Assembly (NCBI GenBank): GCA_003598025.1
Contig: QZKH01000002.1
Coordinates: 138,133 to 202,132, forward strand
DNA from: Candidatus Omnitrophota bacterium
GTDB lineage: Bacteria; Omnitrophota; Gorgyraeia; Gygaellales; Profunditerraquicolaceae
DNA length: 64,000 nucleotides
Direction: 5' to 3'
Positions 30,805 to 57,959 of this stretch are shown in pieces. The position numbers and the translations under genes are program-made. The notes under the pieces are model-generated. The model did no database searches. It was given only the letters and a program-made list of their open reading frames with translations, and was not told where the DNA came from. Within the stretch, counting starts at the first letter, position 1. Every line of letters begins with the position of its first letter.

Positions 30805-30870
30805 ACTGTTCACAGATTACGGTTCATAGAATATTTATGTGAACTGCACACCATGAACTGTGAACTATAT
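30805..30870. repeat. GTTCAYAG octamer repeats in direct and inverted orientation
   Basis: tgttcacag, ggttcatag, gtgaactg, atgaactgtgaactat. Lies upstream of the ppiase promoter (TTGCAT-16-TATAAT at 30877..30898). Confidence 0.6.
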
Positions 30871-30910
30871 AAATAATTGCATTTCAATCTATCGCTGATA
30901 TAATATCCCT

Positions 30911-31447
30911 ATGAAAAAGCTGCTGTTTTTTTCTATTCTTTCTTTAGCTTTTTTTGCCACCCGCGGCTTTGCAGAAGGAGGAGATATCGTGGTATTAGAA
31001 ACCAACCAAGGCAGGATTGAAATAAAACTTATGCCTGATATAGCGCCTAAGGCATGCCAGAATTTTAGAACGCTTGTTGAAGAAGGATATTATAACGGCT
31101 TAATCTTTCATCGGGTCATCAAGGGTTTTATGATACAAGGAGGAGACCCTACAGGTACAGGTATGGGAGGGGTTTCTATCTGGGGTAAGCCTTTTGCGGA
31201 TGAAGTGAGTATTAATGTTGCATTTGATAAGCCGGGGTTGGTCGCTATGGCTAATTCCGGGCCGAATACAAATATGAGCCAGTTTTTTATTACCACAGCC
31301 ATGACCCCATGGCTTAATATGCGCCATACAATATTTGGCGAGGTAATTTCAGGTTATGATGTTGTCCAGAATATTGAGAATGTAGCTACAGACGCCTCTA
31401 ATAAGCCTATCACCAGGCAAGTGATAACAAAAGCTTATTTGAAATAA
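30911..31447 (+). CDS. Cyclophilin-type peptidyl-prolyl cis-trans isomerase, secreted
   Basis: Signal peptide and FHRVIKGFMIQGGDPTGTG. Confidence 0.9.
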   Translation: MKKLLFFSILSLAFFATRGFAEGGDIVVLETNQGRIEIKLMPDIAPKACQNFRTLVEEGYYNGLIFHRVIKGFMIQGGDPTGTGMGGVSIWGKPFADEVSINVAFDKPGLVAMANSGPNTNMSQFFITTAMTPWLNMRHTIFGEVISGYDVVQNIENVATDASNKPITRQVITKAYLK

Positions 31448-31496: not shown

Positions 31497-33521
31497 ATGG
31501 CTAAAGTCATAGATTATTCCAGCGAGTTAAATAAAGCCCAATTACAGGCTGTTGAGTCTACCCGGGGGCCGTATCTGGTTATAGCCGGAGCAGGCAGCGG
31601 CAAGACAAGGGTATTGGTATATAGGGTCGCCTATCTGGTTGAAAACGGGGTAAGCCCGGAAGAGATACTCTTGCTTACTTTTACGCGCAAGGCTGCTGAG
31701 GAGATGCTCAGGCGCGCAAGTTTATTATTGGATAACCGTTGCCAGAGGGTCTCAGGCGGGACTTTTCATTCTTTCGCCAACCTGATGCTCAGGAGGTATG
31801 CCAAATTCCTGAGTATGCCGTCTAACTTTACCATATTAGACCAATCTGATGCCGAAGACGCCATCAATCTTATGCGTGCGCAGCTGGGGCTCAATAAGAC
31901 AGAAAAGCGTTTCCCGCGCAAAAAAGCCGTTCATGAAATAATTTCAAAGAGCATTAATAAGGCACAACCGATTGAAGATGTGCTATATGAAGAATACCCT
32001 CATTTTATGGAATGGACGGAGGAGATAAAAAATATCAGGGACAGCTATAATAAATATAAGGCGTCTAAATTCCTTCTGGACTATGACGATCTGCTGATAT
32101 ATTTCAGGGACCTTCTTGTTAAGAATGAAGATATCCGTGTCAAACTTTCCAAAAGATTTAAATATATTATGGTGGATGAGTACCAGGATACAAATAAGCT
32201 GCAGGCTTTTATAGCCTGTTTATTAGCAAGCGAGCACCATAATATTATGGTCGTAGGTGATGATGCGCAGAGTATTTATTCTTTTAGAGGCGCCAATTTC
32301 AGGAATATACTCGATTTCCCGAAGATCTTCAAGGAAGCCAAAATCATTACCCTTGAAGAGAATTACCGTTCGACACAGAAGATACTCAATCTTACTAATG
32401 ATGTCATACGTTATTCTAAGGAAGGGTTTGAAAAGAACCTCTACACCAAGAGAAAAGGCGGCTCAAAGCCTGTTTATATTGAGACAAGAGATGAGAACGG
32501 CCAATCAAAGTTTATCGCCGATAAGATACTTGAGCTAAGGGAAGAAGGCGTAGAGCTTAAAGATATAGCTGTATTGTTCCGTTCAGGATGGCATTCTAAC
32601 GATTTAGAGATAGAACTTTCTTCAAGGGATATACCTTTTGCTAAATACGGAGGGCAGAAGTTTGTAGAGGCAGCGCATATAAAAGATATAGTTTCGTATC
32701 TGAGGATCATGCATAATGCAAGCGATGAAATAAGCTGGCACAGAATACTCCTTTTAATGAGAGGCGTCGGCTCAAAGACAGCTACTCAGATTATTAATGA
32801 GATATTGGTGCATAAACAGTATTCCGGGATAGATTCAAAGTTTACCAGGAAAATAGAAGACCTTAGGGCGCTCTTTGAGATATTTCACGGGTTAGATGAT
32901 TGCTCTTTGACCAAACCCGCGGAGCTTATACGTATTTTTATGAAGCATTATGAGCCGCTGCTTAAGGAGAAATACGATGATTTTAATAAGAGGTTAGGCG
33001 ATTTGGATTCTTTAATAAGGATAGCTTCCAGGTATGATTCGCTTGAGAATTTCCTTGTAGACTTAGCACTCGAGCCTCCGGAGAGAAACATAATAGAAGC
33101 AGGCTTAAGAGATAAAGATGATTCCGGAGTTACTTTGTCCACGATACATTCTGCTAAAGGCCTTGAATGGCATACTGTTTTCATAATCTACGTTGCTGAA
33201 GGGCACCTGCCTTCTTATTTAAGCCTTGAAGACGAAGAAGCTATAGAGGAAGAACGAAGATTGTTTTATGTCGCATCAACCCGGGCAAAAGAGAACCTGT
33301 TTTTGTTAAAACCGCATATTGACAGAGCCCCCAGGAATTATTTTGATAATGCAGGTTCTGTGATAACCGAGGTATCCCGTTTTTTGCGGGAGGCAGATAT
33401 CATGGATAAACACCTTGATATATTAGAGATGCAGCACTATGCGGAGCATAACTACGCGACCGGCAAAAACGGAATGCTGGAGATGATGAAAGACTATTTT
33501 CGTTATATCGATGATATTTAA
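31497..33521 (+). CDS. UvrD/PcrA/Rep-family ATP-dependent DNA helicase
   Basis: Walker A AGAGSGKTRVL, DEYQDTN, and motifs through to the C-terminal VASTRAKE. Confidence 0.9.
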   Translation: MAKVIDYSSELNKAQLQAVESTRGPYLVIAGAGSGKTRVLVYRVAYLVENGVSPEEILLLTFTRKAAEEMLRRASLLLDNRCQRVSGGTFHSFANLMLRRYAKFLSMPSNFTILDQSDAEDAINLMRAQLGLNKTEKRFPRKKAVHEIISKSINKAQPIEDVLYEEYPHFMEWTEEIKNIRDSYNKYKASKFLLDYDDLLIYFRDLLVKNEDIRVKLSKRFKYIMVDEYQDTNKLQAFIACLLASEHHNIMVVGDDAQSIYSFRGANFRNILDFPKIFKEAKIITLEENYRSTQKILNLTNDVIRYSKEGFEKNLYTKRKGGSKPVYIETRDENGQSKFIADKILELREEGVELKDIAVLFRSGWHSNDLEIELSSRDIPFAKYGGQKFVEAAHIKDIVSYLRIMHNASDEISWHRILLLMRGVGSKTATQIINEILVHKQYSGIDSKFTRKIEDLRALFEIFHGLDDCSLTKPAELIRIFMKHYEPLLKEKYDDFNKRLGDLDSLIRIASRYDSLENFLVDLALEPPERNIIEAGLRDKDDSGVTLSTIHSAKGLEWHTVFIIYVAEGHLPSYLSLEDEEAIEEERRLFYVASTRAKENLFLLKPHIDRAPRNYFDNAGSVITEVSRFLREADIMDKHLDILEMQHYAEHNYATGKNGMLEMMKDYFRYIDDI

Positions 33522-33534
33522 CTTATAATATAAG

Positions 33535-34632
33535 ATGAAGAAAAGAGTAGTGGTAGCCATGAGCGGGGGGGTTGATTCTTCAGTTGCTGCTGCCCTTCTT
33601 TGCGGCAAAGGCTATGAAGTTATCGGCCTTACAATGTGTTTCAATTTATCTGAAGAGGGTAAGAGGCGCAGGATCCCATGCTGCGGTATTGAAGGCATAG
33701 AGGATGCAAGAAGGGTCGCACACAAGCTTAAGATCAGGCATTACGTTGTTAATATGCAAAAGTATTTGAAAAGATACGTTATTGATGATTTTATCCAGGA
33801 ATATTCTGCAGGCAGGACTCCTAATCCTTGCGTCAGGTGTAATCAATTCCTTAAATTTGATATATTGTTGAAGAAGGCACTTTCTTTGGATGCAGAATAT
33901 CTTGCTACCGGGCATTATGCGCGCATCGAAAAAGTCACCAGCCGTCAGCCGTCAGCCGTCAGCTTTAAGCTAAGAAAAGGCAAAGATAAGAATAAAGATC
34001 AGTCTTATTTTCTCTATCGATTGAATCAGGCGCAATTAAAACACATATTATTCCCTTTGGGGGGCTATACAAAACAGGAAGTAAGAAGCTTGGCTAGAGA
34101 TTTTGGTTTAGCTGTTGCTGATAAGGCAGGGAGCCAGGAGATATGCTTTTTACCGGATGATGATTACAGAGTTTTTATAAAGGGGAAAATTAAAGGCGAT
34201 GCCACAGGGGATATTATAGATGGCAAAGGTAACATATTGGGCAGACATAGGGGTATAGCCTATTATACTATAGGCCAAAGGCAGGGTTTAGGGATTGCTT
34301 TAGGTTACCCTGCATATATAATTGGCATCGAAGCCAAAACTAACAGGATAATAATCGGGCCAAAAGCCCAGGCTTTAAGCAAGTCTTTTATGGTGAAAGA
34401 ATGCCATTTTATAGCCGATTTCCCGGAAAAGAAGATTGCTGCAAAAGTCAAGATAAGGTATAATCACAAAGAGGCTCCTGCGGATATCTATCCTATGGGT
34501 GAAAAAATAAGAGTAGCTTTTAAAAAAGCGCAGTTTGCCGTTACTTGCGGGCAGTCGGCTGTTTTTTATGACAAGGATACTGTTTTAGGCGGCGGGATTA
34601 TAGATTGCATTCAGGAGAGAAAGGAAAAATGA
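33535..34632 (+). CDS. mnmA: tRNA-specific 2-thiouridylase
   Basis: PP-loop AMSGGVDSS and catalytic Cys residues; 365 aa. Confidence 0.9.
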   Translation: MKKRVVVAMSGGVDSSVAAALLCGKGYEVIGLTMCFNLSEEGKRRRIPCCGIEGIEDARRVAHKLKIRHYVVNMQKYLKRYVIDDFIQEYSAGRTPNPCVRCNQFLKFDILLKKALSLDAEYLATGHYARIEKVTSRQPSAVSFKLRKGKDKNKDQSYFLYRLNQAQLKHILFPLGGYTKQEVRSLARDFGLAVADKAGSQEICFLPDDDYRVFIKGKIKGDATGDIIDGKGNILGRHRGIAYYTIGQRQGLGIALGYPAYIIGIEAKTNRIIIGPKAQALSKSFMVKECHFIADFPEKKIAAKVKIRYNHKEAPADIYPMGEKIRVAFKKAQFAVTCGQSAVFYDKDTVLGGGIIDCIQERKEK

Positions 34633-47497: not shown

Positions 47498-47730
47498 AGA
47501 GGTAAGCCGATAAAGGCAAACTTCCGCTTTGTAAAAGCGGGCGCAGAGTTAGCGCTTGCGCATCGAAAGATAAGGACCTCGCACTTTGTGCGAGCTCGCC
47601 AGACTTAAGGTTATAGTTGGCGAGGCAAAGCCACAGACCTAAACCCGCTTTGGAGGAAATGGGTAGGGTAGCTGGGTTGCCGAAGGACGGTAGAGCCAGA
47701 GAGTACCTCTGGCCTTTATCGGCGGTTTTT
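47498..47730 (+). ncRNA. Structured leader RNA with GEMM (c-di-GMP-I riboswitch)-like conserved segments, possibly tandem or insertion-bearing
   Basis: Closing helix CCGATAAAGG (47507..47516) pairs with CCTTTATCGG (47713..47722). Internal GGCAAAC plus a GNRA (GUAA) hairpin. GCAAAGCCACAGACCUAAACC and GGGUAGGGUAGCUGGGUUGCCGAAGG closely match the Vc2 GEMM-I segments GCAAAGCCUCCGGCCUAAACC and GGUAGGUAGCGGGGUUACCGAUGG, recalled from memory. Confidence 0.5.
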
Positions 47731-47792: not shown

Positions 47793-49013
47793 ATGATTGA
47801 ATTTCCCGGAGGTTTCTTATGGGGTGCAGCAACTTCTGCTTACCAGGTCGAAGGAAATAATATACATAGTGACTGGTGGCAATGGGAGAAATCCGGAAAA
47901 CTGAAATTCCAATCTGGCAAGGCCTGCCTTCACTATGAACTTTATAAGGAAGATTTTAATTTAGCTAAATCACTTCACCATAACGCCCACCGCATTTCAA
48001 TAGAATGGTCGCGTATAGAACCAGCAATAGGCCAGTTTAATGAAAAAGAAATCGACCATTATAAACAGGTAATCCTGGAATTAAGGCGCAATAATATAGA
48101 GCCAATAGTCACTCTGCACCATTTTACCAATCCTGCCTGGTTTACAGAATCCGGAGGCTGGCTGGATAAAAAATGCACCTCCCATTTTATAAAATATGTT
48201 GAGAAACTACTTTACGCATTTGGGGACAAAGTCAAATACTGGATTACAATAAATGAACCATTTATTTACTCTTACTATTCATATATCGAGGGAACTTGGC
48301 CGCCGCAGGTAAAGTCGTTTAGCAAGGCAAAAAAGGTACTTAATAATCTGGCTTTAACCCATATAAAGACCTATAGGCTTATCCACGAGTATTATAAAGC
48401 AAACCGCCTTGGTTTGCCTCTGGTCAGCATAGCAAAGAATATGCAGGCATTTATGCCTTGTATCCCAAGCCTGAAAAATATATTAGCCGCCTATTTGAGA
48501 GATAGGATTTATAATCACAATATGCTTGCCTATTTTTGCCGGAAAAGAACCCTTGATTTTATAGGCGTAAATTATTACTCCAGGAGTCTGGTTGAGGTAG
48601 GCGGCTTGAGTTTGAAAAACATACTTCTGGATACCTGCCAGAATAGCCATAGTAAACTTTTGAAAAATTCCCTGGGCTGGGACATATACCCTGAGGGGCT
48701 CTTCAAAATTCTCTGCGGTCTGAAATGTTTCGGGTTACCGGTATTAATTACCGAAAACGGGATCTGCACAGAAGACGATAACCTGAGGTGGAGCTTTATC
48801 CACGACCACTTGTATAATATCAATCTGGCCGTTAGACAGGGTGTCAAAGTCATGGGTTATATTTACTGGTCGCTAATTGACAATTTTGAATGGGATAAGG
48901 GCTTTGGCCCGAGATTTGGGCTTGTAGAGGTAGATTATGCTACATTAAAGCGTAAAGTCAGAGAAAGCGCTTATAAGTATTCACAGGTGTGCAAAACCAA
49001 CAAGCTTGATTGA
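47793..49013 (+). CDS. Glycoside hydrolase family 1 (beta-glucosidase/beta-galactosidase-like)
   Basis: GH1 N-terminal FLWGAATSAYQVEG, acid/base TINEP, nucleophile ITENG. Confidence 0.9.
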   Translation: MIEFPGGFLWGAATSAYQVEGNNIHSDWWQWEKSGKLKFQSGKACLHYELYKEDFNLAKSLHHNAHRISIEWSRIEPAIGQFNEKEIDHYKQVILELRRNNIEPIVTLHHFTNPAWFTESGGWLDKKCTSHFIKYVEKLLYAFGDKVKYWITINEPFIYSYYSYIEGTWPPQVKSFSKAKKVLNNLALTHIKTYRLIHEYYKANRLGLPLVSIAKNMQAFMPCIPSLKNILAAYLRDRIYNHNMLAYFCRKRTLDFIGVNYYSRSLVEVGGLSLKNILLDTCQNSHSKLLKNSLGWDIYPEGLFKILCGLKCFGLPVLITENGICTEDDNLRWSFIHDHLYNINLAVRQGVKVMGYIYWSLIDNFEWDKGFGPRFGLVEVDYATLKRKVRESAYKYSQVCKTNKLD

Positions 49014-55487: not shown

Positions 55488-55495
55488 AATATATT

Positions 55496-55548
55496 AGTTC
55501 ATGGTTCATAGTTGATAGTTCATAGATCATAGACGATTATTCATAGAT
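55496..55548 (+). repeat. Direct GTTCATAG-type octamer repeat array immediately upstream of tRNA-Phe
   Basis: gttcatgg, gttcatag, ttgatag, gttcatag, atcatag ... ttcatag. Confidence 0.6.
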
Positions 55549-55549
55549 T

Positions 55550-55621
55550 GCCGAGGTAGCTCAGTGGTAGAGCGCAGCCCTGAAAAGGCTGGCGTGGGGA
55601 GTCCGATTCTCCCCCTCGGCA
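55550..55621 (+). tRNA. tRNA-Phe (anticodon GAA)
   Basis: Cloverleaf folded by hand: acceptor GCCGAGG/CCTCGGC, D arm GCTC-AGTGGTA-GAGC, anticodon stem CAGCC/GGCTG with loop CTGAAAA, T arm GGGAG-TCCGATT-CTCCC, discriminator A. CCA is not encoded. Confidence 0.85.
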
Positions 55622-55768
55622 CTTTTTTAAGATACAGGATTAATGTCTCCCCACGCCAAAAGGGGTGTGGGGAAAAAGTTTCCCCACGTTTGGGGGAGAA
55701 CAGTACGCCTGAGGCGGACGTTAGGAGGGGGCTTGCCCACTCCTAAGGAGTGAGTGTAAACGAACGAC

Positions 55769-55806
55769 GCGTGGGGGAGTCCGATTCTCCCCCTCGGCAC
55801 TTTTTT
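55769..55806 (+). other. Duplicated 3' half of tRNA-Phe (variable loop, T arm, acceptor 3' strand, T-tract)
   Basis: GCGTGGGGGAGTCCGATTCTCCCCCTCGGCACTTTTTT repeats tRNA-Phe 55592..55628 with one extra G. It lies 145 nt downstream of the intact tRNA, across a GC-rich hairpin-rich segment. Confidence 0.6.
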
Positions 55807-55859: not shown

Positions 55860-56609
55860 ATGTATAAAATAGTTTTATTGCGCCATGGTGAGAGCACTTG
55901 GAATAAGGAAAACAGATTCACCGGATGGACTGATGTGGACCTTTCGGATAAGGGCATTAAAGAAGCCGGAAAAGCCGGCCAGATCCTGAAGAAAGAAGGC
56001 TTTATTTTTGATATAGCTTTCACTTCTGTTTTAAAGAGGGCAATACGCACCTTGTGGATCGTCCTTGAGGAAATGGACCTTATGTGGATACCGGTTATAA
56101 ATTCCTGGAGATTGAATGAGCGGCATTACGGTTCATTGCAGGGTTTAAATAAATCAGAGATGGCTGCAAAATTCGGTGATAAGCAGGTTTTGATCTGGAG
56201 AAGAAGTTACGATGTCCCTCCGCCGCCTTTGGAAGAAAATGATGAACGTTCTCCTAAAAAAGACCCGCGTTACAAGGATATGGATCCCAAAGATATACCA
56301 TTGACAGAATGCCTTAAGGATACCGTTATCCGCTTTCTGCCATATTGGCATGAAACAATCGCCCCGTCAATTAAGTCAGGCAAGCGTGTTATAATAGCCG
56401 CTCACGGCAATAGCCTGCGCGCTTTAGTCAAATACCTTGATAAGGTTTCTGATGAAGAGATAGTGCATCTAAATATCCCCACTGGCATGCCTCTTGTTTA
56501 TGAATTAGATAAGGATTTAAAACCAATTAAGCATTATTATTTAGGAGACCCTGAAGAAGTAAAGAAAGCAATGGAGGCAGTAGCTGCCCAGGGTAAAGCT
56601 AAGAAATAG
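55860..56609 (+). CDS. gpmA: 2,3-bisphosphoglycerate-dependent phosphoglycerate mutase
   Basis: [10 protein letters not shown] catalytic-His motif and the dPGM fold. Confidence 0.9.
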
Positions 56610-56615
56610 AAGGCC

Positions 56616-57110
56616 ATGGCAAATTTCTCTTTTGATATTGTTTCTGAGGTAGACTTGCAGGAGATGGATAATGCAGTAAATCAGGCGCTTAAAGAACTAA
56701 GCCAGCGCTATGATTTTAAGGGGAGCAAGGCAACTATCGAATACGACAGGAAAGAGAAAAAAATAATTTTAATCGCAGAGGATGATTTTAAATTGCGTTC
56801 TCTTACCGATATACTGGCTACCAGGATGGCCAAAAGAGGTATTTCGCTTAAAGCGCTTAAGTTTAATGACCCTGAAAAGGCCTTTGGCGACCAGATAAGG
56901 CAGACTTTAGAGATACGCATGGGCATAGACAAAGAGAAAGCAAAAGAGCTTACCGGAATAATAAAGAACCTTGGGTTCAAAGTGCAGGCGCAAATCGAAG
57001 GGGAAAAAATAAAAGTCAGTTCTGCAAAAAAAGATGAACTTCAGGCAGTTATTGTGCATCTGAAGGGCTTGAATTTCTCAATTCCGCTTAATTTCTGCAA
57101 TTATCGTTGA
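56616..57110 (+). CDS. yajQ: YajQ-family (UPF0234) nucleotide/c-di-GMP-binding protein
   Basis: N-terminal FSFDIVSEVDLQEMDNAVNQA, typical of YajQ. Confidence 0.8.
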   Translation: MANFSFDIVSEVDLQEMDNAVNQALKELSQRYDFKGSKATIEYDRKEKKIILIAEDDFKLRSLTDILATRMAKRGISLKALKFNDPEKAFGDQIRQTLEIRMGIDKEKAKELTGIIKNLGFKVQAQIEGEKIKVSSAKKDELQAVIVHLKGLNFSIPLNFCNYR

Positions 57111-57170: not shown

Positions 57171-57194
57171 TGCTGCTATTTATACGCTAACTAA

Positions 57195-57395
57195 TTATAG
57201 CTTAGTCACGTTAGTAGCTTGTTCACCTTTTGGCCCCTGGGTGATATCAAATTCTACCTCTTGGCCTTCAGCTAAGGTTTTATATCCCTCGCCCTTTATG
57301 GCGCTGTGATGGACAAAGACATCTTTGCCGTTTTCGGTAGTTATAAAACCGTAACCCTTTTGGTTCGAGAACCACTTTACTTTACCCTTTGACAT
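57195..57395 (-). CDS. Cold-shock protein (CspA family)
   Basis: [16 protein letters not shown] with RNP1 and VFVHHSAI with RNP2. Confidence 0.9.
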
Positions 57396-57509: not shown

Positions 57510-57538
57510 ATTATAGCATTTTATTGCAGTTTGTCAAT
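57510..57538 (-). promoter_or_regulatory. Sigma70-type promoter of the cold-shock gene, with a long 5' UTR
   Basis: On the - strand: TTGACA (57538..57533), 17 nt, TATAAT (57515..57510). The roughly 110-nt leader contains a hairpin at about 57423..57462. Confidence 0.5.
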
Positions 57539-57548
57539 GGAATTTATT

Positions 57549-57670
57549 AGTTCATAGTTCATAGTTGATAGTTCATAGCTCACTGAACGTATTGCGTATA
57601 GCGTAGTGCGTATGGTGCCCTTGTGACTAGCTGCTCCCCATTCTATGAACCATGAACCATGAACCATGGA
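57549..57670. repeat. Composite repeat region: direct GTTCATAG octamers, three GCGTAK units, then inverted CATGAAC repeats
   Basis: agttcatagttcatagttgatagttcatag ... gcgtatagcgtagtgcgtatg ... ctatgaaccatgaaccatgaaccatggacc. Confidence 0.6.
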
Positions 57671-57685
57671 CCAATCGACCAATTA

Positions 57686-57713
57686 TTGACTAATAGTCAA
57701 TTACTGATATAAT
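57686..57713 (+). promoter_or_regulatory. Sigma70-type promoter for the tRNA-like element, tRNA-Thr and possibly the downstream MFS gene
   Basis: TTGACT (57686..57691), 16 nt, TATAAT (57708..57713). Confidence 0.5.
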
Positions 57714-57774
57714 TTAATAGTCAAAATACATATAATTATCCGGTTTTGTGCGTTTTAGCTGATAATCGTTGTTT

Positions 57775-57863
57775 GCCGGCGTAGCTCAGCTCCGACGTGC
57801 TCTTTTCATTCGCAGTCGGAGTCCCGACCTCCGTAGCTTGTTTAATTTGATGGAGCGTCGGGA
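57775..57863 (+). other. Aberrant tRNA-like / GC-rich structured element (no acceptable cloverleaf found)
   Basis: Begins GCCGGCGTAGCTCAGC (tRNA 5'-like) and contains a T-arm-like CGGAG-TCCCGAC-CTCCG. No consistent D or anticodon arms. 3' CGTCGGG could pair 6/7 with the 5' end. Confidence 0.2.
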
Positions 57864-57886
57864 TTGGTAGAACAGCGTATATCTAT

Positions 57887-57959
57887 GCCGATGTAGCTCA
57901 GTTGGTAGAGCAGCGCTTTCGTAAAGCGCGGGTCGGAGGTTCAAATCCTCTCATCGGCT
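57887..57959 (+). tRNA. tRNA-Thr (anticodon CGT)
   Basis: Acceptor GCCGATG/CATCGGC, D arm GCTC-AGTTGGTA-GAGC, anticodon stem GCGCT/AGCGC with loop TTCGTAA, T arm GGAGG-TTCAAAT-CCTCT. Confidence 0.85.

What the first reader, a model, noticed from the sequence alone, without database searches (positions are those of the whole stretch)
30805..30870. GTTCATAG octamer arrays, in direct and inverted sets, recur upstream of three promoter regions (30805..30870, 55496..55548, 57549..57670)
The same 8-bp unit is tandemly repeated 3-6 times with an 8-bp period. At two loci it is mirrored by inverted copies (CTATGAAC/CATGAAC x3) 50-60 bp away. The loci are directly upstream of the ppiase promoter, tRNA-Phe, and the tRNA-Thr/cold-shock divergent promoter pair. 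The third locus also carries a GCGTAK x3 mini-array between the arms. This looks like a dedicated transcription-factor or nucleoid-protein binding array (UP/FIS-like) marking highly expressed promoters, or a dispersed short-repeat family.
Basis: seen in the sequence. Interest (0 to 1): 0.6.

Follow-up and report, generated by a model that had tools for sequence, protein, structure and literature searches.

The report
Intergenic heptamer-repeat foldback arrays
Three gene-free gaps of this Omnitrophota genome hold runs of a 7-base repeat (GTTCATA), twice as two mirror-image runs; they belong to the long-known, unexplained class of bacterial heptanucleotide repeats and are recent lineage-specific additions, not conserved parts of the neighbouring promoters.

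Summary
The repeats are real and far above chance, but the unit is a heptad (GTTCATR, period 7), not an octamer. Loci 2 and 3 are true tandem arrays. Locus 1 is a decayed array with copies 14/14/7 bp apart, in register. Loci 1 and 3 are convergent foldbacks, (GTTCATR)n-spacer-(YATGAAC)n. The "GCGTAK" mini-array is also period 7.

The window comes from a Candidatus Omnitrophota MAG (GCA_020060685.1). The same heptad array occurs in at least 120 places in genomes of many phyla:
- 118 of 120 are intergenic.
- They track the background mix of intergenic gap types.
- Gene 3' and 5' ends face them equally (105 vs 107).
- None lies within 1 kb of a tRNA.
- 40 have a convergent inverted partner and only 2 a divergent one.

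Relatives keep the pssA-tRNA-Phe-csp-tRNA-Thr synteny and the promoters but lack the arrays. None of 120 metagenomic csp upstream regions has one, including 20 with the divergent tRNA-Thr.

Best reading: these are lineage-specific copies of a dispersed heptanucleotide-repeat foldback family (STRR/LSSR kind) sitting in permissive intergenic slots. A dedicated "strong-promoter marker" is not supported. A heptad-reading protein or a mobile foldback element is not excluded.

The parts
30808..30835 (+). Locus 1 forward arm: GTTCACA, GATTACG (degenerate), GTTCATA, GAATATT (degenerate). It starts 18 bp after the stop codon of the TonB-dependent receptor gene.
   Evidence: Sequence read. Hexamer cluster. 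Alignment with the other arms.
30838..30865 (-). Locus 1 reverse arm: TGTGAAC, TGCACAC (degenerate), CATGAAC, TGTGAAC. It is convergent with the forward arm.
   Evidence: As single-stranded DNA the region folds at -9.6 kcal/mol, z = -3.1.
30877..30904 (+). Candidate cyclophilin promoter: TTGCAT, 16 bp, TGaTATAAT. The -10 ends 6 nt before the ATG at 30911, so either the mRNA is leaderless or the call is wrong.
   Evidence: Read by eye. The consensus scan did not call it. Cyclophilin identity.
55497..55549 (+). Locus 2: forward heptads only. GTTCATG GTTCATA GTTGATA GTTCATA GATCATA GACGATT ATTCATA GATT. It lies between the pssA stop codon (55487) and tRNA-Phe, with no inverted partner.
55512..55540 (+). 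Weak promoter-like site inside the locus 2 array: TTGATA (from the variant heptad GTTGATA), 17 bp, GATTAT. It matches 9 of 12 positions.
55550..55622 (+). tRNA-Phe(GAA), directly abutted by the locus 2 array.
57510..57537 (-). csp promoter: TTGACA, 16 bp, TATAAT (12/12, with TG). Its -35 lies 12 bp from the forward arm of locus 3.
   Evidence: The csp gene at 57194-57395 (-) carries PF00313.
57550..57584 (+). Locus 3 forward arm: GTTCATA GTTCATA GTTGATA GTTCATA GCTCACT.
57588..57615 (+). Second heptad family inside the locus 3 spacer: CGTATTG CGTATAG CGTAGTG CGTATGG.
   Evidence: TRF gives period 7 and 3.7 copies. Sequence.
57644..57685 (-). Locus 3 reverse arm: TATGAAC CATGAAC CATGAAC CATGGAC. 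It then decays (CAATCGAC CAATTA) into the tRNA-Thr -35 box.
57686..57713 (+). tRNA-Thr promoter: TTGACT, 16 bp, TATAAT (11/12, with TG). It is conserved in relatives that lack the arrays.
57887..57959 (+). tRNA-Thr(CGT).

Best explanation
The three loci are lineage-specific copies of a dispersed family of heptanucleotide tandem repeats with unit GTTCATR. This is the STRR/LSSR kind of bacterial simple-sequence repeat. The typical form is a foldback: a forward array and a convergent inverted array around a short, variable spacer.

Shown here:
- The unit and period.
- The convergent arrangement.
- Restriction to intergenic DNA.
- Near-identity between two arms in the window.
- Absence from orthologous sites in relatives.
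- Occurrence of the same arrays in many phyla, with no preference for promoter-bearing or terminator-bearing gaps.

Inferred:
- Arrays grow and shrink by strand slippage in 7-bp steps.
- Whole arms or doublets are copied to new sites, by template switching, gene conversion or an enzyme acting in trans.
- They survive only where they break nothing. Seven is not a multiple of three, and the unit carries TAG on one strand and TGA on the other, so coding DNA excludes them.
- The slot between the csp and tRNA-Thr -35 boxes is one such permissive site.

Effects on the neighbouring promoters are probably side effects rather than a dedicated regulatory role. Possible side effects are extra spacing or insulation between divergent promoters, cruciform or RNA-hairpin potential, and an accidental -35-like TTGATA.
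For: Unit, period and excess over chance.

Dispersed copies:
- The forward arms of loci 2 and 3 share ATTAGTTCATRGTTCATAGTTGATAGTTCATAG (33/34 bp).
- Four of five arms share the outer variant heptad ATTAG/ATTGG.

Context in those loci:
- 118 of 120 are intergenic, against a crude coding fraction of 82%.
- Gap classes match the background.
- 105 gene 3' ends and 107 gene 5' ends face the arrays.
- No tRNA lies within 1 kb.
- No two loci are orthologous.

Foldback architecture:
- 40 convergent against 2 divergent partners among 147 arrays in genomes, and 6 against 0 in viral contigs.
- Spacers run 4-148 bp and vary in sequence.
- Other natural heptad families in the same genomes also have inverted partners (37 of 168).
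- Copying as a unit: two Symploca loci share the spacer hairpin with its loop inverted, and several loci of one Nostocaceae MAG share the junction GTTCATGGCTATTAAC.

Not a conserved promoter part:
- L123/L124 keep pssA-tRNA-Phe-csp-tRNA-Thr and the TTGACT...TGnTATAAT promoter without GTTCATR arrays.
- L122, L327 and L328 also lack them.
- 0 of 120 metagenomic csp upstream regions has any period-7 array. In the 20 with tRNA-Thr, the distance from the csp start codon to tRNA-Thr ranges from 191 to 518 bp (491 bp in the window), and the longer ones carry unrelated hairpins and repeats between the two -35 boxes.

Other points:
- Other promoters in the window carry no array.
- No Rfam family matches.
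- No transposase, ribbon-helix-helix or other candidate binding protein was found among the about 50 window proteins scanned or in the precomputed Pfam table covering 44.8-64 kb; about 20 genes between 9.7 and 21.2 kb and 42.3-45.2 kb were not scanned.

Literature: heptanucleotide repeats are the most abundant class of long simple-sequence repeats in most bacterial genomes. They occur intergenically in Cyanobacteria, Bacteroidetes and Beggiatoaceae and have no established function (PMC4679880).
Against: - In the window, the arm next to each of three promoters (csp, tRNA-Thr, candidate cyclophilin) reads (YRTGAAC)n towards the -35 box and ends 11-21 bp from it. A regulator could use that regularity.
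- The 40:2 convergent bias shows the two arms are not independent. Neutral slippage alone does not explain it, so some constraint of mechanism or function exists that I could not identify.
- No direct evidence of mobility was found: no target-site duplication, and no filled-versus-empty comparison between close strains.
- Only 64 kb of a genome assembly whose contig is 305 kb could be examined.
- A preprint on Nostoc reports that deleting a different heptamer array changes reporter output (10.1101/2022.06.06.494920).
Confidence: 0.55

Rival explanations
1. The arrays are operator arrays for a heptad-reading DNA-binding protein. Dimers would polymerise along contiguous 7-bp sites in direct and convergent orientation, as the omega ribbon-helix-helix repressor of plasmid pSM19035 does on WATCACW heptads. 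They would activate or repress the adjacent csp, tRNA-Thr, tRNA-Phe and cyclophilin promoters.
For: - Contiguous 7-bp units occur in direct and convergent sets immediately upstream of, or overlapping, -35 boxes.
- The proximal arm has the same orientation at three promoters.
- The strong preference for convergent over divergent pairs (40:2) would fit an orientation-dependent protein contact.
- Locus 1 heptads GTTCACA/TGTGAAC share TCACA with the omega heptad (own knowledge of the omega system; not tested here).
- A Nostoc preprint speculates that a protein partner binds heptamer repeats.
Against: - No candidate protein was found in the window.
- The arrays are absent from all relatives that keep the same promoters.
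- In other genomes the arrays are as frequent between convergent gene ends as background gaps are.
- Arm-to-arm spacers vary from 4 to 148 bp.
- Many different heptad units coexist and abut one another in the same genomes. That is hard to reconcile with one sequence-specific reader.
Confidence: 0.2
2. The foldbacks act through secondary structure. As RNA hairpins they would stabilise, process or terminate transcripts that read into them. As DNA cruciforms they would absorb the negative supercoiling generated between divergent strong promoters and insulate them from each other.
For: - Both paired loci fold better than shuffles: locus 1 z = -3.1, locus 3 z = -2.2.
- Locus 1 starts 18 nt after a stop codon, and no canonical terminator is present there.
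- In L100 the spacer holds a terminator-like hairpin.
- Arrays in other genomes lie a median of 31 bp from gene 3' ends.
- Locus 3 sits between two near-consensus divergent promoters.
Against: - Locus 2 and about 70% of arrays elsewhere have no inverted partner.
- No U-tract follows the hairpins.
- Hairpin stability cannot explain why convergent pairs outnumber divergent ones 40:2, because both arrangements form the same helix.
- Locus 3 is not downstream of any gene.
- The fold energies are modest, and the minimum-free-energy structure of locus 3 has a frequency of only 0.0006 in the ensemble.
Confidence: 0.13
3. The arrays are contingency (phase-variable) simple-sequence repeats. Gain or loss of 7-bp units would change the spacing or phasing of upstream elements and tune expression of the adjacent genes, as the 7-bp repeats in Haemophilus influenzae hmw promoters and the TTTTGAT heptads of the Vibrio cholerae ctxAB promoter do.
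For: - These are tandem 7-bp units next to promoters.
- The literature reports heptad copy number correlating with ctxAB promoter activity (10.1101/2021.05.14.444153, abstract).
- Indels in 7-nt steps occur between Cyanothece strains (PMC4679880).
Against: - The arrays lie upstream of the -35 box, not between promoter elements.
- The target genes (tRNAs, csp, cyclophilin) are housekeeping genes, not surface or virulence genes.
- No strain-level variants could be found to test polymorphism: the metagenome scan gave 0 hits, and the only same-species pair available, L123/L124, is identical.
Confidence: 0.05
4. The arrays are arm-type binding sites or att-site remnants of an integrative element that targeted the two tRNA genes.
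For: - Two of the three loci adjoin tRNA genes that carry partial tRNA duplications nearby: the tRNA-Phe 3' end is repeated at 55771-55800, and a tRNA-Thr 5' fragment lies at 57777-57791.
- Relative to L123, His_Phos_1 and YajQ genes are inserted between tRNA-Phe and csp.
Against: - 0 of 120 arrays in other genomes lie within 1 kb of a tRNA.
- Locus 1 has no tRNA.
- No integrase is present in the window.
- Relatives have the tRNA-fragment duplications without heptad arrays.
Confidence: 0.03

Closest known systems
Heptanucleotide tandem repeats of bacteria: cyanobacterial STRR sequences (Mazel et al. 1990, own knowledge), long simple-sequence repeats (Mrazek et al. 2007, as summarised in PMC4679880), and TAACTGA repeats of Beggiatoaceae, Cyanobacteria and Bacteroidetes (MacGregor 2015, PMC4679880)
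   Same: - A 7-nt unit in tandem runs of 2-40 copies.
- Almost exclusively intergenic.
- Several heptad families mixed side by side.
- Patchy distribution across Cyanobacteria, Bacteroidota and others.
- Strain-specific positions.
- No established function.
   Different: - The unit GTTCATR was not found in the paper library searched.
- The host is an Omnitrophota MAG.
- The marked convergent-doublet architecture (40:2) is not a described feature of STRR or TAACTGA repeats, as far as I could find.
- BOGUAY TAACTGA repeats sit just upstream of start codons. These do not.
Omega (ribbon-helix-helix) repressor operators of inc18 plasmid pSM19035 (own knowledge)
   Same: Contiguous 7-bp heptads in direct and convergent orientation, upstream of or overlapping promoters. 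Convergent pairs are preferred over divergent ones.
   Different: - The heptad sequence differs (WATCACW against GTTCATR).
- The omega system is plasmid-borne, with the repressor encoded next to its sites. Here the arrays are chromosomal and dispersed, no RHH gene was found, the arms are separated by 9-59 bp, and the arrays are not conserved with the promoters.
REPINs / BIMEs (REP doublets forming hairpins, mobilised by RAYT transposases; PMC3116915)
   Same: - Extragenic and dispersed.
- Two inverted arms are better conserved than the spacer.
- The doublet, not the single arm, seems to be the unit.
- Found in all kinds of intergenic gaps.
   Different: - The arms are tandem heptads, not a ~20-35-nt imperfect palindrome.
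- Spacer length is highly variable.
- No RAYT or IS200-like gene was seen in the window.
- Mobility is not shown.
Promoter-proximal heptad repeats with known effect: TTTTGAT repeats of the Vibrio cholerae ctxAB promoter (ToxT/H-NS; 10.1101/2021.05.14.444153) and 7-bp repeats in Haemophilus influenzae hmw promoters (own knowledge; SSR survey PMC2651432)
   Same: 7-bp tandem units close to a promoter. Copy number could in principle tune expression.
   Different: Those are single-locus direct arrays tied to virulence genes and known regulators. Here there are convergent doublets at housekeeping genes, and no polymorphism data.
UP elements and FIS sites of rRNA/tRNA promoters
   Same: Position from about -40 upstream of strong stable-RNA promoters. 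Moderately A+T-rich.
   Different: No A/T-tract UP consensus and no 15-bp FIS-like degenerate palindrome (checked by eye only). The same arrays occur next to gene 3' ends elsewhere. They are absent from the orthologous tRNA-Thr promoter in 20 relatives.

Membership tests
Heptanucleotide simple-sequence repeats (STRR/LSSR kind) | Tandem head-to-tail copies of a 7-nt unit, at least 3 copies | tested here: met
   TRF gives period 7 with 5.4, 5.0 and 4.1 copies. Locus 1 meets this only as a decayed array in 7-bp register.
Heptanucleotide simple-sequence repeats (STRR/LSSR kind) | Located in non-coding DNA | tested here: met
   All three window loci are intergenic. 118 of 120 arrays in other genomes are intergenic.
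Heptanucleotide simple-sequence repeats (STRR/LSSR kind) | Dispersed at many sites of a genome, often mixed with other heptad units | tested here: met
   There are three loci in 64 kb, and a CGTATNG array is nested in locus 3. Multiple loci per genome and adjoining heptad families are seen in other genomes. The whole source genome could not be scanned.
Heptanucleotide simple-sequence repeats (STRR/LSSR kind) | Copy-number variation in 7-bp steps between strains | not testable with these tools
   No close relative of the source genome was found.
Omega-type ribbon-helix-helix heptad operator | Contiguous 7-bp sites in direct and/or convergent orientation at a promoter | tested here: met
Omega-type ribbon-helix-helix heptad operator | Heptad consensus WATCACW | tested here: not met
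   The unit is GTTCATR. Only the locus 1 variants GTTCACA share TCACA. The consensus is recalled from memory.
Omega-type ribbon-helix-helix heptad operator | Cognate small RHH repressor encoded with the sites | tested here: not met
   No RHH or other small DNA-binding protein was found among the window ORFs scanned; about 20 genes between 9.7 and 21.2 kb and 42.3-45.2 kb were not scanned. A gene elsewhere in the genome is not excluded.
REPIN / MITE-like foldback element | Two inverted arms able to form a hairpin; arms better conserved than the spacer | tested here: met
REPIN / MITE-like foldback element | Arms are a REP-type imperfect palindrome at a fixed spacing | tested here: not met
   The arms are heptad arrays, and spacers run from 4 to 148 bp.
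REPIN / MITE-like foldback element | Associated RAYT or other transposase; target-site duplication; filled and empty sites | tested here: inconclusive
   No transposase is present in the window. No target-site duplication is evident in the flanks. Distant relatives show empty sites, but they are too divergent to define insertion boundaries.
UP element / FIS-site promoter enhancer | Conserved with the strong promoter it serves | tested here: not met
   The tRNA-Thr and csp promoters are conserved in L123 and in 20 metagenomic relatives, all without arrays.
UP element / FIS-site promoter enhancer | Enrichment upstream of promoters relative to other intergenic DNA | tested here: not met
   The gap-class distribution equals the background. 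105 gene 3' ends and 107 gene 5' ends face the arrays. This was tested in other genomes, not genome-wide in the source.

The most novel reading that the evidence does not exclude
(GTTCATR)n-spacer-(YATGAAC)n doublets are a cross-phylum family of miniature foldback elements whose arms are heptad arrays. They would be propagated as a unit by an unidentified trans-acting enzyme, or read by an unidentified heptad-binding protein. That would explain the 40:2 convergent bias, the shared arm termini within genomes and the variable loops. It would also give the 35-year-old puzzle of bacterial heptanucleotide repeats a concrete, testable agent.
Probability: 0.2. Interest if true: 0.65.

Novelty: new member of a known kind. 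Interest (0 to 1): 0.3.

Why it matters
Heptanucleotide repeats are the commonest long simple-sequence repeats in bacteria and have been known in cyanobacteria since 1990, yet neither their origin nor their function is settled.

This case adds three things:
- A new host phylum (Omnitrophota) and a heptad unit absent from the papers searched.
- Evidence that the arrays are lineage-specific occupants of permissive intergenic slots, not conserved promoter parts.
- A quantitative regularity: convergent inverted doublets outnumber divergent ones about 20 to 1. This points to a directional generating mechanism or reader that could be sought by phylogenetic profiling.

For annotation, the practical lesson is that such arrays next to strong promoters should not be read as regulatory sites without comparative support.

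Tried and rejected
1. Octamer, 8-bp period. Rejected: TRF and the spacing analysis give 7.
2. tRNA association. Rejected: 0 of 120 arrays in other genomes lie within 1 kb of a tRNA.
3. GTTCATR as an unusually abundant heptad. Rejected: three composition-matched permuted heptads give 43, 90 and 16 stretches in viral contigs, against 53 for the real unit. Heptad arrays of many units are common.
4. Inverted partners as unique to GTTCATR. This seemed true against the permuted controls (0 convergent partners). Other natural heptad families in the same genomes have them too (37 of 168).
5. A universal 'G-rich 5' arm' polarity, like head-to-head telomere fusions or healed breaks. It held 23:0 in a cyanobacteria-dominated sample. 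It failed in viral contigs (6:6), where the AGAATCC family is opposite. Polarity is family-specific, so I dropped the idea.
6. Orthologous conservation among the 120 loci. None found.
7. Extending the source contig beyond the window. Look-ups with window proteins failed. Only P0001 worked.
8. Strain variants in metagenomes. 0 hits. L123 and L124 are identical.
9. Rfam. No family matches at the arrays, even at E <= 1.
10. LexA, CRP or FNR-like operators. Considered by eye from remembered consensus sequences. The arrangement and spacing do not fit. Not formally tested.
11. A binding protein encoded nearby. None found among the window ORFs scanned.
Full report
**What is in the sequence.**

The three loci were read directly. 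The repeated unit is a heptad, GTTCATR. Tandem Repeats Finder reports period 7 at three places:
- 55495-55532, 5.4 copies.
- 57548-57582, 5.0 copies.
- 57645-57673, 4.1 copies on the opposite strand.

Locus 2 reads GTTCATG GTTCATA GTTGATA GTTCATA GATCATA GACGATT ATTCATA GATT. It runs straight into tRNA-Phe at 55550 and has no inverted partner.

Locus 3 has a forward arm (57550-57584) and a reverse arm (57644-57671) that decays into the next promoter. The 59-bp spacer holds a second heptad array, CGTATTG CGTATAG CGTAGTG CGTATGG.

Locus 1 is not tandem. It has GTTCACA and GTTCATA 14 bp apart, then TGTGAAC, CATGAAC and TGTGAAC at 14- and 7-bp spacing. All are in 7-bp register, with degenerate heptads between them, so it looks like a decayed convergent doublet.

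Clusters of the core hexamer occur only at these three loci in 64 kb. The two-heptad pattern with up to 2 mismatches gives 13 matches against 1.5 expected.

**Where the window comes from and what surrounds the loci.**

A PssA protein of the window is identical to one on contig JAGUZT010000009.1 of assembly GCA_020060685.1. The next-best homologues, at 58-61% identity, are annotated Candidatus Omnitrophica/Omnitrophota.

The window is core chromosome. Nearly all genes are on one strand and are housekeeping genes: oxidative-stress proteins, Met/Cys metabolism, NadA, MnmA, UvrD, Rnf and hydrogenase maturation. No transposase, integrase, ribbon-helix-helix protein or RAYT was found among the roughly 50 window proteins scanned or in the precomputed Pfam table for 44.8-64 kb; about 20 genes between 9.7 and 21.2 kb and 42.3-45.2 kb were not scanned.

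Locus 3 lies exactly between the -35 boxes of two divergent, near-consensus promoters:
- csp: TTGACA-16-TATAAT, 12/12.
- tRNA-Thr: TTGACT-16-TATAAT, 11/12.
- Both have a TG extension.

Locus 2 contains a weak site, TTGATA-17-GATTAT, whose -35 is supplied by the variant heptad GTTGATA.

Locus 1 starts 18 bp after the stop codon of a TonB-dependent receptor gene. It ends 11 bp before a TTGCAT-16-TGaTATAAT site that I read by eye. The scan did not call this site.

Other good promoter-like regions in the window have no heptads, for example those at about 28960, 40830 and 9150.

**The same arrays elsewhere.**

Hits came from Cyanobacteria, Bacteroidota (Mucilaginibacter, Prevotella, Chitinophagaceae, Saprospiraceae), Planctomycetota, Methylomirabilota, Acidobacteriota, Omnitrophota, Verrucomicrobiota and others. 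Several hits often came from one genome. In these loci:
- 118 of 120 arrays are intergenic, although about 82% of the DNA is coding by a crude ORF call.
- Gaps holding an array are co-directional, divergent or convergent in 58/22/20% of cases. Array-free gaps of the same loci give 61/20/19%.
- The gene ends facing an array are 105 3' ends and 107 5' ends.
- No array is within 1 kb of a tRNA.
- No two loci are orthologous.

The family therefore lives in intergenic DNA of any kind. It shows no preference for promoters, terminators or tRNA genes.

**The doublet architecture.**

Of 147 arrays with at least three units, 40 have an inverted array within 150 bp downstream (convergent) and only 2 have one upstream (divergent). 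Viral contigs give 6 against 0. Both paired loci of the window are convergent.

Spacers range from 4 to 148 bp and differ in sequence even within one genome. There are nevertheless signs that a doublet is copied as a unit:
- Two Symploca loci share the central hairpin with its loop inverted.
- Several loci of one Nostocaceae MAG share the junction GTTCATGGCTATTAAC.
- In the window, the forward arms of loci 2 and 3 share 33 of 34 bases, including the third-position variant GTTGATA and the outer flank ATTA.
- Four of the five arms begin with the same variant heptad.

The arms can pair (z = -3.1 and -2.2 for single-stranded DNA). Hairpin stability cannot explain the orientation bias, however, because both arrangements form the same helix.

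**Controls.**

Three composition-matched permuted heptads gave 43, 90 and 16 stretches in viral contigs, against 53 for GTTCATR. The unit is therefore not exceptionally abundant, and heptad arrays in general far exceed chance.

Those artificial controls had no convergent partners. Other natural heptad families in the array-rich genomes do have them: TAGTCAT, GGAGTTA, GGGCATT, GGTTAAT and GCGGAAT have partners in 37 of 168 arrays. Each family has its own consistent polarity.

An apparent rule that the 5' arm is G-rich held 23:0 in that sample. It failed in viral contigs, where the AGAATCC family is opposite and the split is 6:6. I therefore dropped a telomere-like or break-healing reading.

**Comparative test at the window's own loci.**

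Relatives with the same gene order were fetched.
- L123/L124 keep pssA-tRNA-Phe-csp(-)-tRNA-Thr-MFS and the tRNA-Thr promoter (TTGACT...TGATATAAT). They have no GTTCATR heptads. Upstream of tRNA-Phe, L123 has only a weak array of another unit, AACGTWW x4, with two inverted copies.
- L122, L327 and L328 have none.

A metagenome scan with the conserved csp 5' end returned 120 loci.
- 20 carry tRNA-Thr divergently upstream, with recognisable csp (TTGTCAA) and tRNA-Thr (TTGACT...TGGTATAAT) promoter boxes.
- None of the 120 has any period-7 array within 700 bp.
- In those 20, the distance from the csp start codon to tRNA-Thr ranges from 191 to 518 bp, against 491 bp in the window.
- In the shortest ones the two -35 boxes are almost adjacent. 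In the longer ones the space between them holds unrelated hairpins and longer tandem repeats.

The gap between the divergent promoters is thus a permissive, frequently invaded slot. The heptad doublet is what occupies it in this lineage. The promoters evidently work without it.

**Interpretation.**

The best-supported reading (confidence about 0.55) is that these are lineage-specific copies of a dispersed heptanucleotide-repeat foldback family. This kind has been described as STRR in cyanobacteria and as long simple-sequence repeats in many bacteria. Its closest published analogue is the intergenic TAACTGA repeat family of Beggiatoaceae, Cyanobacteria and Bacteroidetes (PMC4679880).

The following steps are inferred, not shown:
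- Growth by slippage in 7-bp steps.
- Copying of arms or doublets to new sites.
- Exclusion from coding DNA, because seven is not a multiple of three and the unit carries TAG on one strand and TGA on the other.

Any effect on the neighbouring promoters is probably incidental. Candidates are added spacing or insulation, cruciform or hairpin potential, and a fortuitous -35-like TTGATA.

The main rival (about 0.2) is an omega-like heptad-reading protein. In its favour:
- The promoter-proximal arm reads (YRTGAAC)n towards the -35 box at three promoters.
- The convergent bias would fit an orientation-dependent contact.

Against it:
- Lack of conservation with the promoters.
- The background-like genomic distribution.
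- The variable arm spacing.
- The coexistence of many heptad units.
- The absence of a candidate protein.

Structure-based function (about 0.13), phase variation (about 0.05) and integrase arm sites (about 0.03) are less likely, for the reasons given under each rival.

**Novelty and score.**

The kind is known and its function is unknown. The unit GTTCATR did not turn up in the paper library. An Omnitrophota host and the roughly 20:1 convergent-doublet bias are modest additions.

The 'strong-promoter marker' reading is not supported.

Interest is about 0.3. The most novel reading still open is a cross-phylum miniature foldback element, or a heptad-reading protein. I give it probability about 0.2; it would deserve about 0.65 if true.

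Noticed in passing
window 57777-57886; also L351, L392, L397, L367, L421 (upstream of tRNA-Thr): A 5' fragment of tRNA-Thr (GCCGGCGTAGCTCAG, identical to the 5' end of the intact tRNA-Thr of relative L123) is followed by a 73-nt insert with two hairpins (CTCCGAC..GTCGGAG and TCCCGAC..GTCGGGA). Then come the D-arm continuation ATTGGTAGAACAGCG and the intact tRNA-Thr. Metagenomic relatives carry homologous fragment-plus-hairpin units, sometimes in two or three tandem copies. This looks like a recurrent element or duplication process targeting the D-loop region of this tRNA gene.
   Followed up: partly
L122 5734-5750; L327 4730-4746; L328 4723-4739: Three Omnitrophota relatives carry a 13-17-nt copy of the tRNA-Phe 5' end (GCYGAGGTAGCTC) followed by TCC and a short hairpin. 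It lies 45-60 bp upstream of the real tRNA-Phe. The junction is the same each time: GTAGCTC|TCC.
   Followed up: no
window 55623-55800: The last 30 nt of tRNA-Phe (55593-55622) are repeated at 55771-55800. The 148 bp between the copies are G+C-rich and hairpin-prone and match no Rfam family. Relative to L123, the His_Phos_1 and YajQ genes (55860-57110) are extra between tRNA-Phe and csp. This may be the remnant of an att-like duplication.
   Followed up: partly
window 57691-57737: A 23-bp direct repeat (TAATAGTCAA..ATATAATT, 2 copies) duplicates the -10 region of the tRNA-Thr promoter. It may create tandem P1/P2 promoters.
   Followed up: no
window 33939-33963: A perfect heptad repeat, CAGCCGT x3.6 (100% matches), lies inside the mnmA-like ORF (33535-34629). 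This is unusual for a 7-bp unit in coding DNA.
   Followed up: no
window 47505-47684: A c-di-GMP-I riboswitch (43.5 bits, gathering score 35) lies upstream of a glycosyl hydrolase family 1 gene (47793-49013).
   Followed up: no
window 30899-30913: The candidate -10 box of the cyclophilin gene ends 6 nt before its ATG, and no Shine-Dalgarno sequence lies between them. The mRNA may be leaderless, or the promoter call may be wrong.
   Followed up: no
L003 2157-2294: In an unrelated MAG, a GTTCAT-family convergent doublet sits immediately upstream of a UvrD-like gene that is 44-59% identical to the window's UvrD at 31497-33521. A TATAAT lies 11 nt after the reverse arm. In the window the doublet precedes cyclophilin-UvrD. 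This is possibly a coincidence.
   Followed up: partly
L382 (upstream of tRNA-Thr): The slot between the csp and tRNA-Thr -35 boxes holds about three tandem copies of a ~64-bp repeat (ggatttcgctggacaaaagatttaaggtgct...). Other relatives have unrelated G+C-rich hairpins in the same slot. The slot appears to be a hot spot for insertions.
   Followed up: partly
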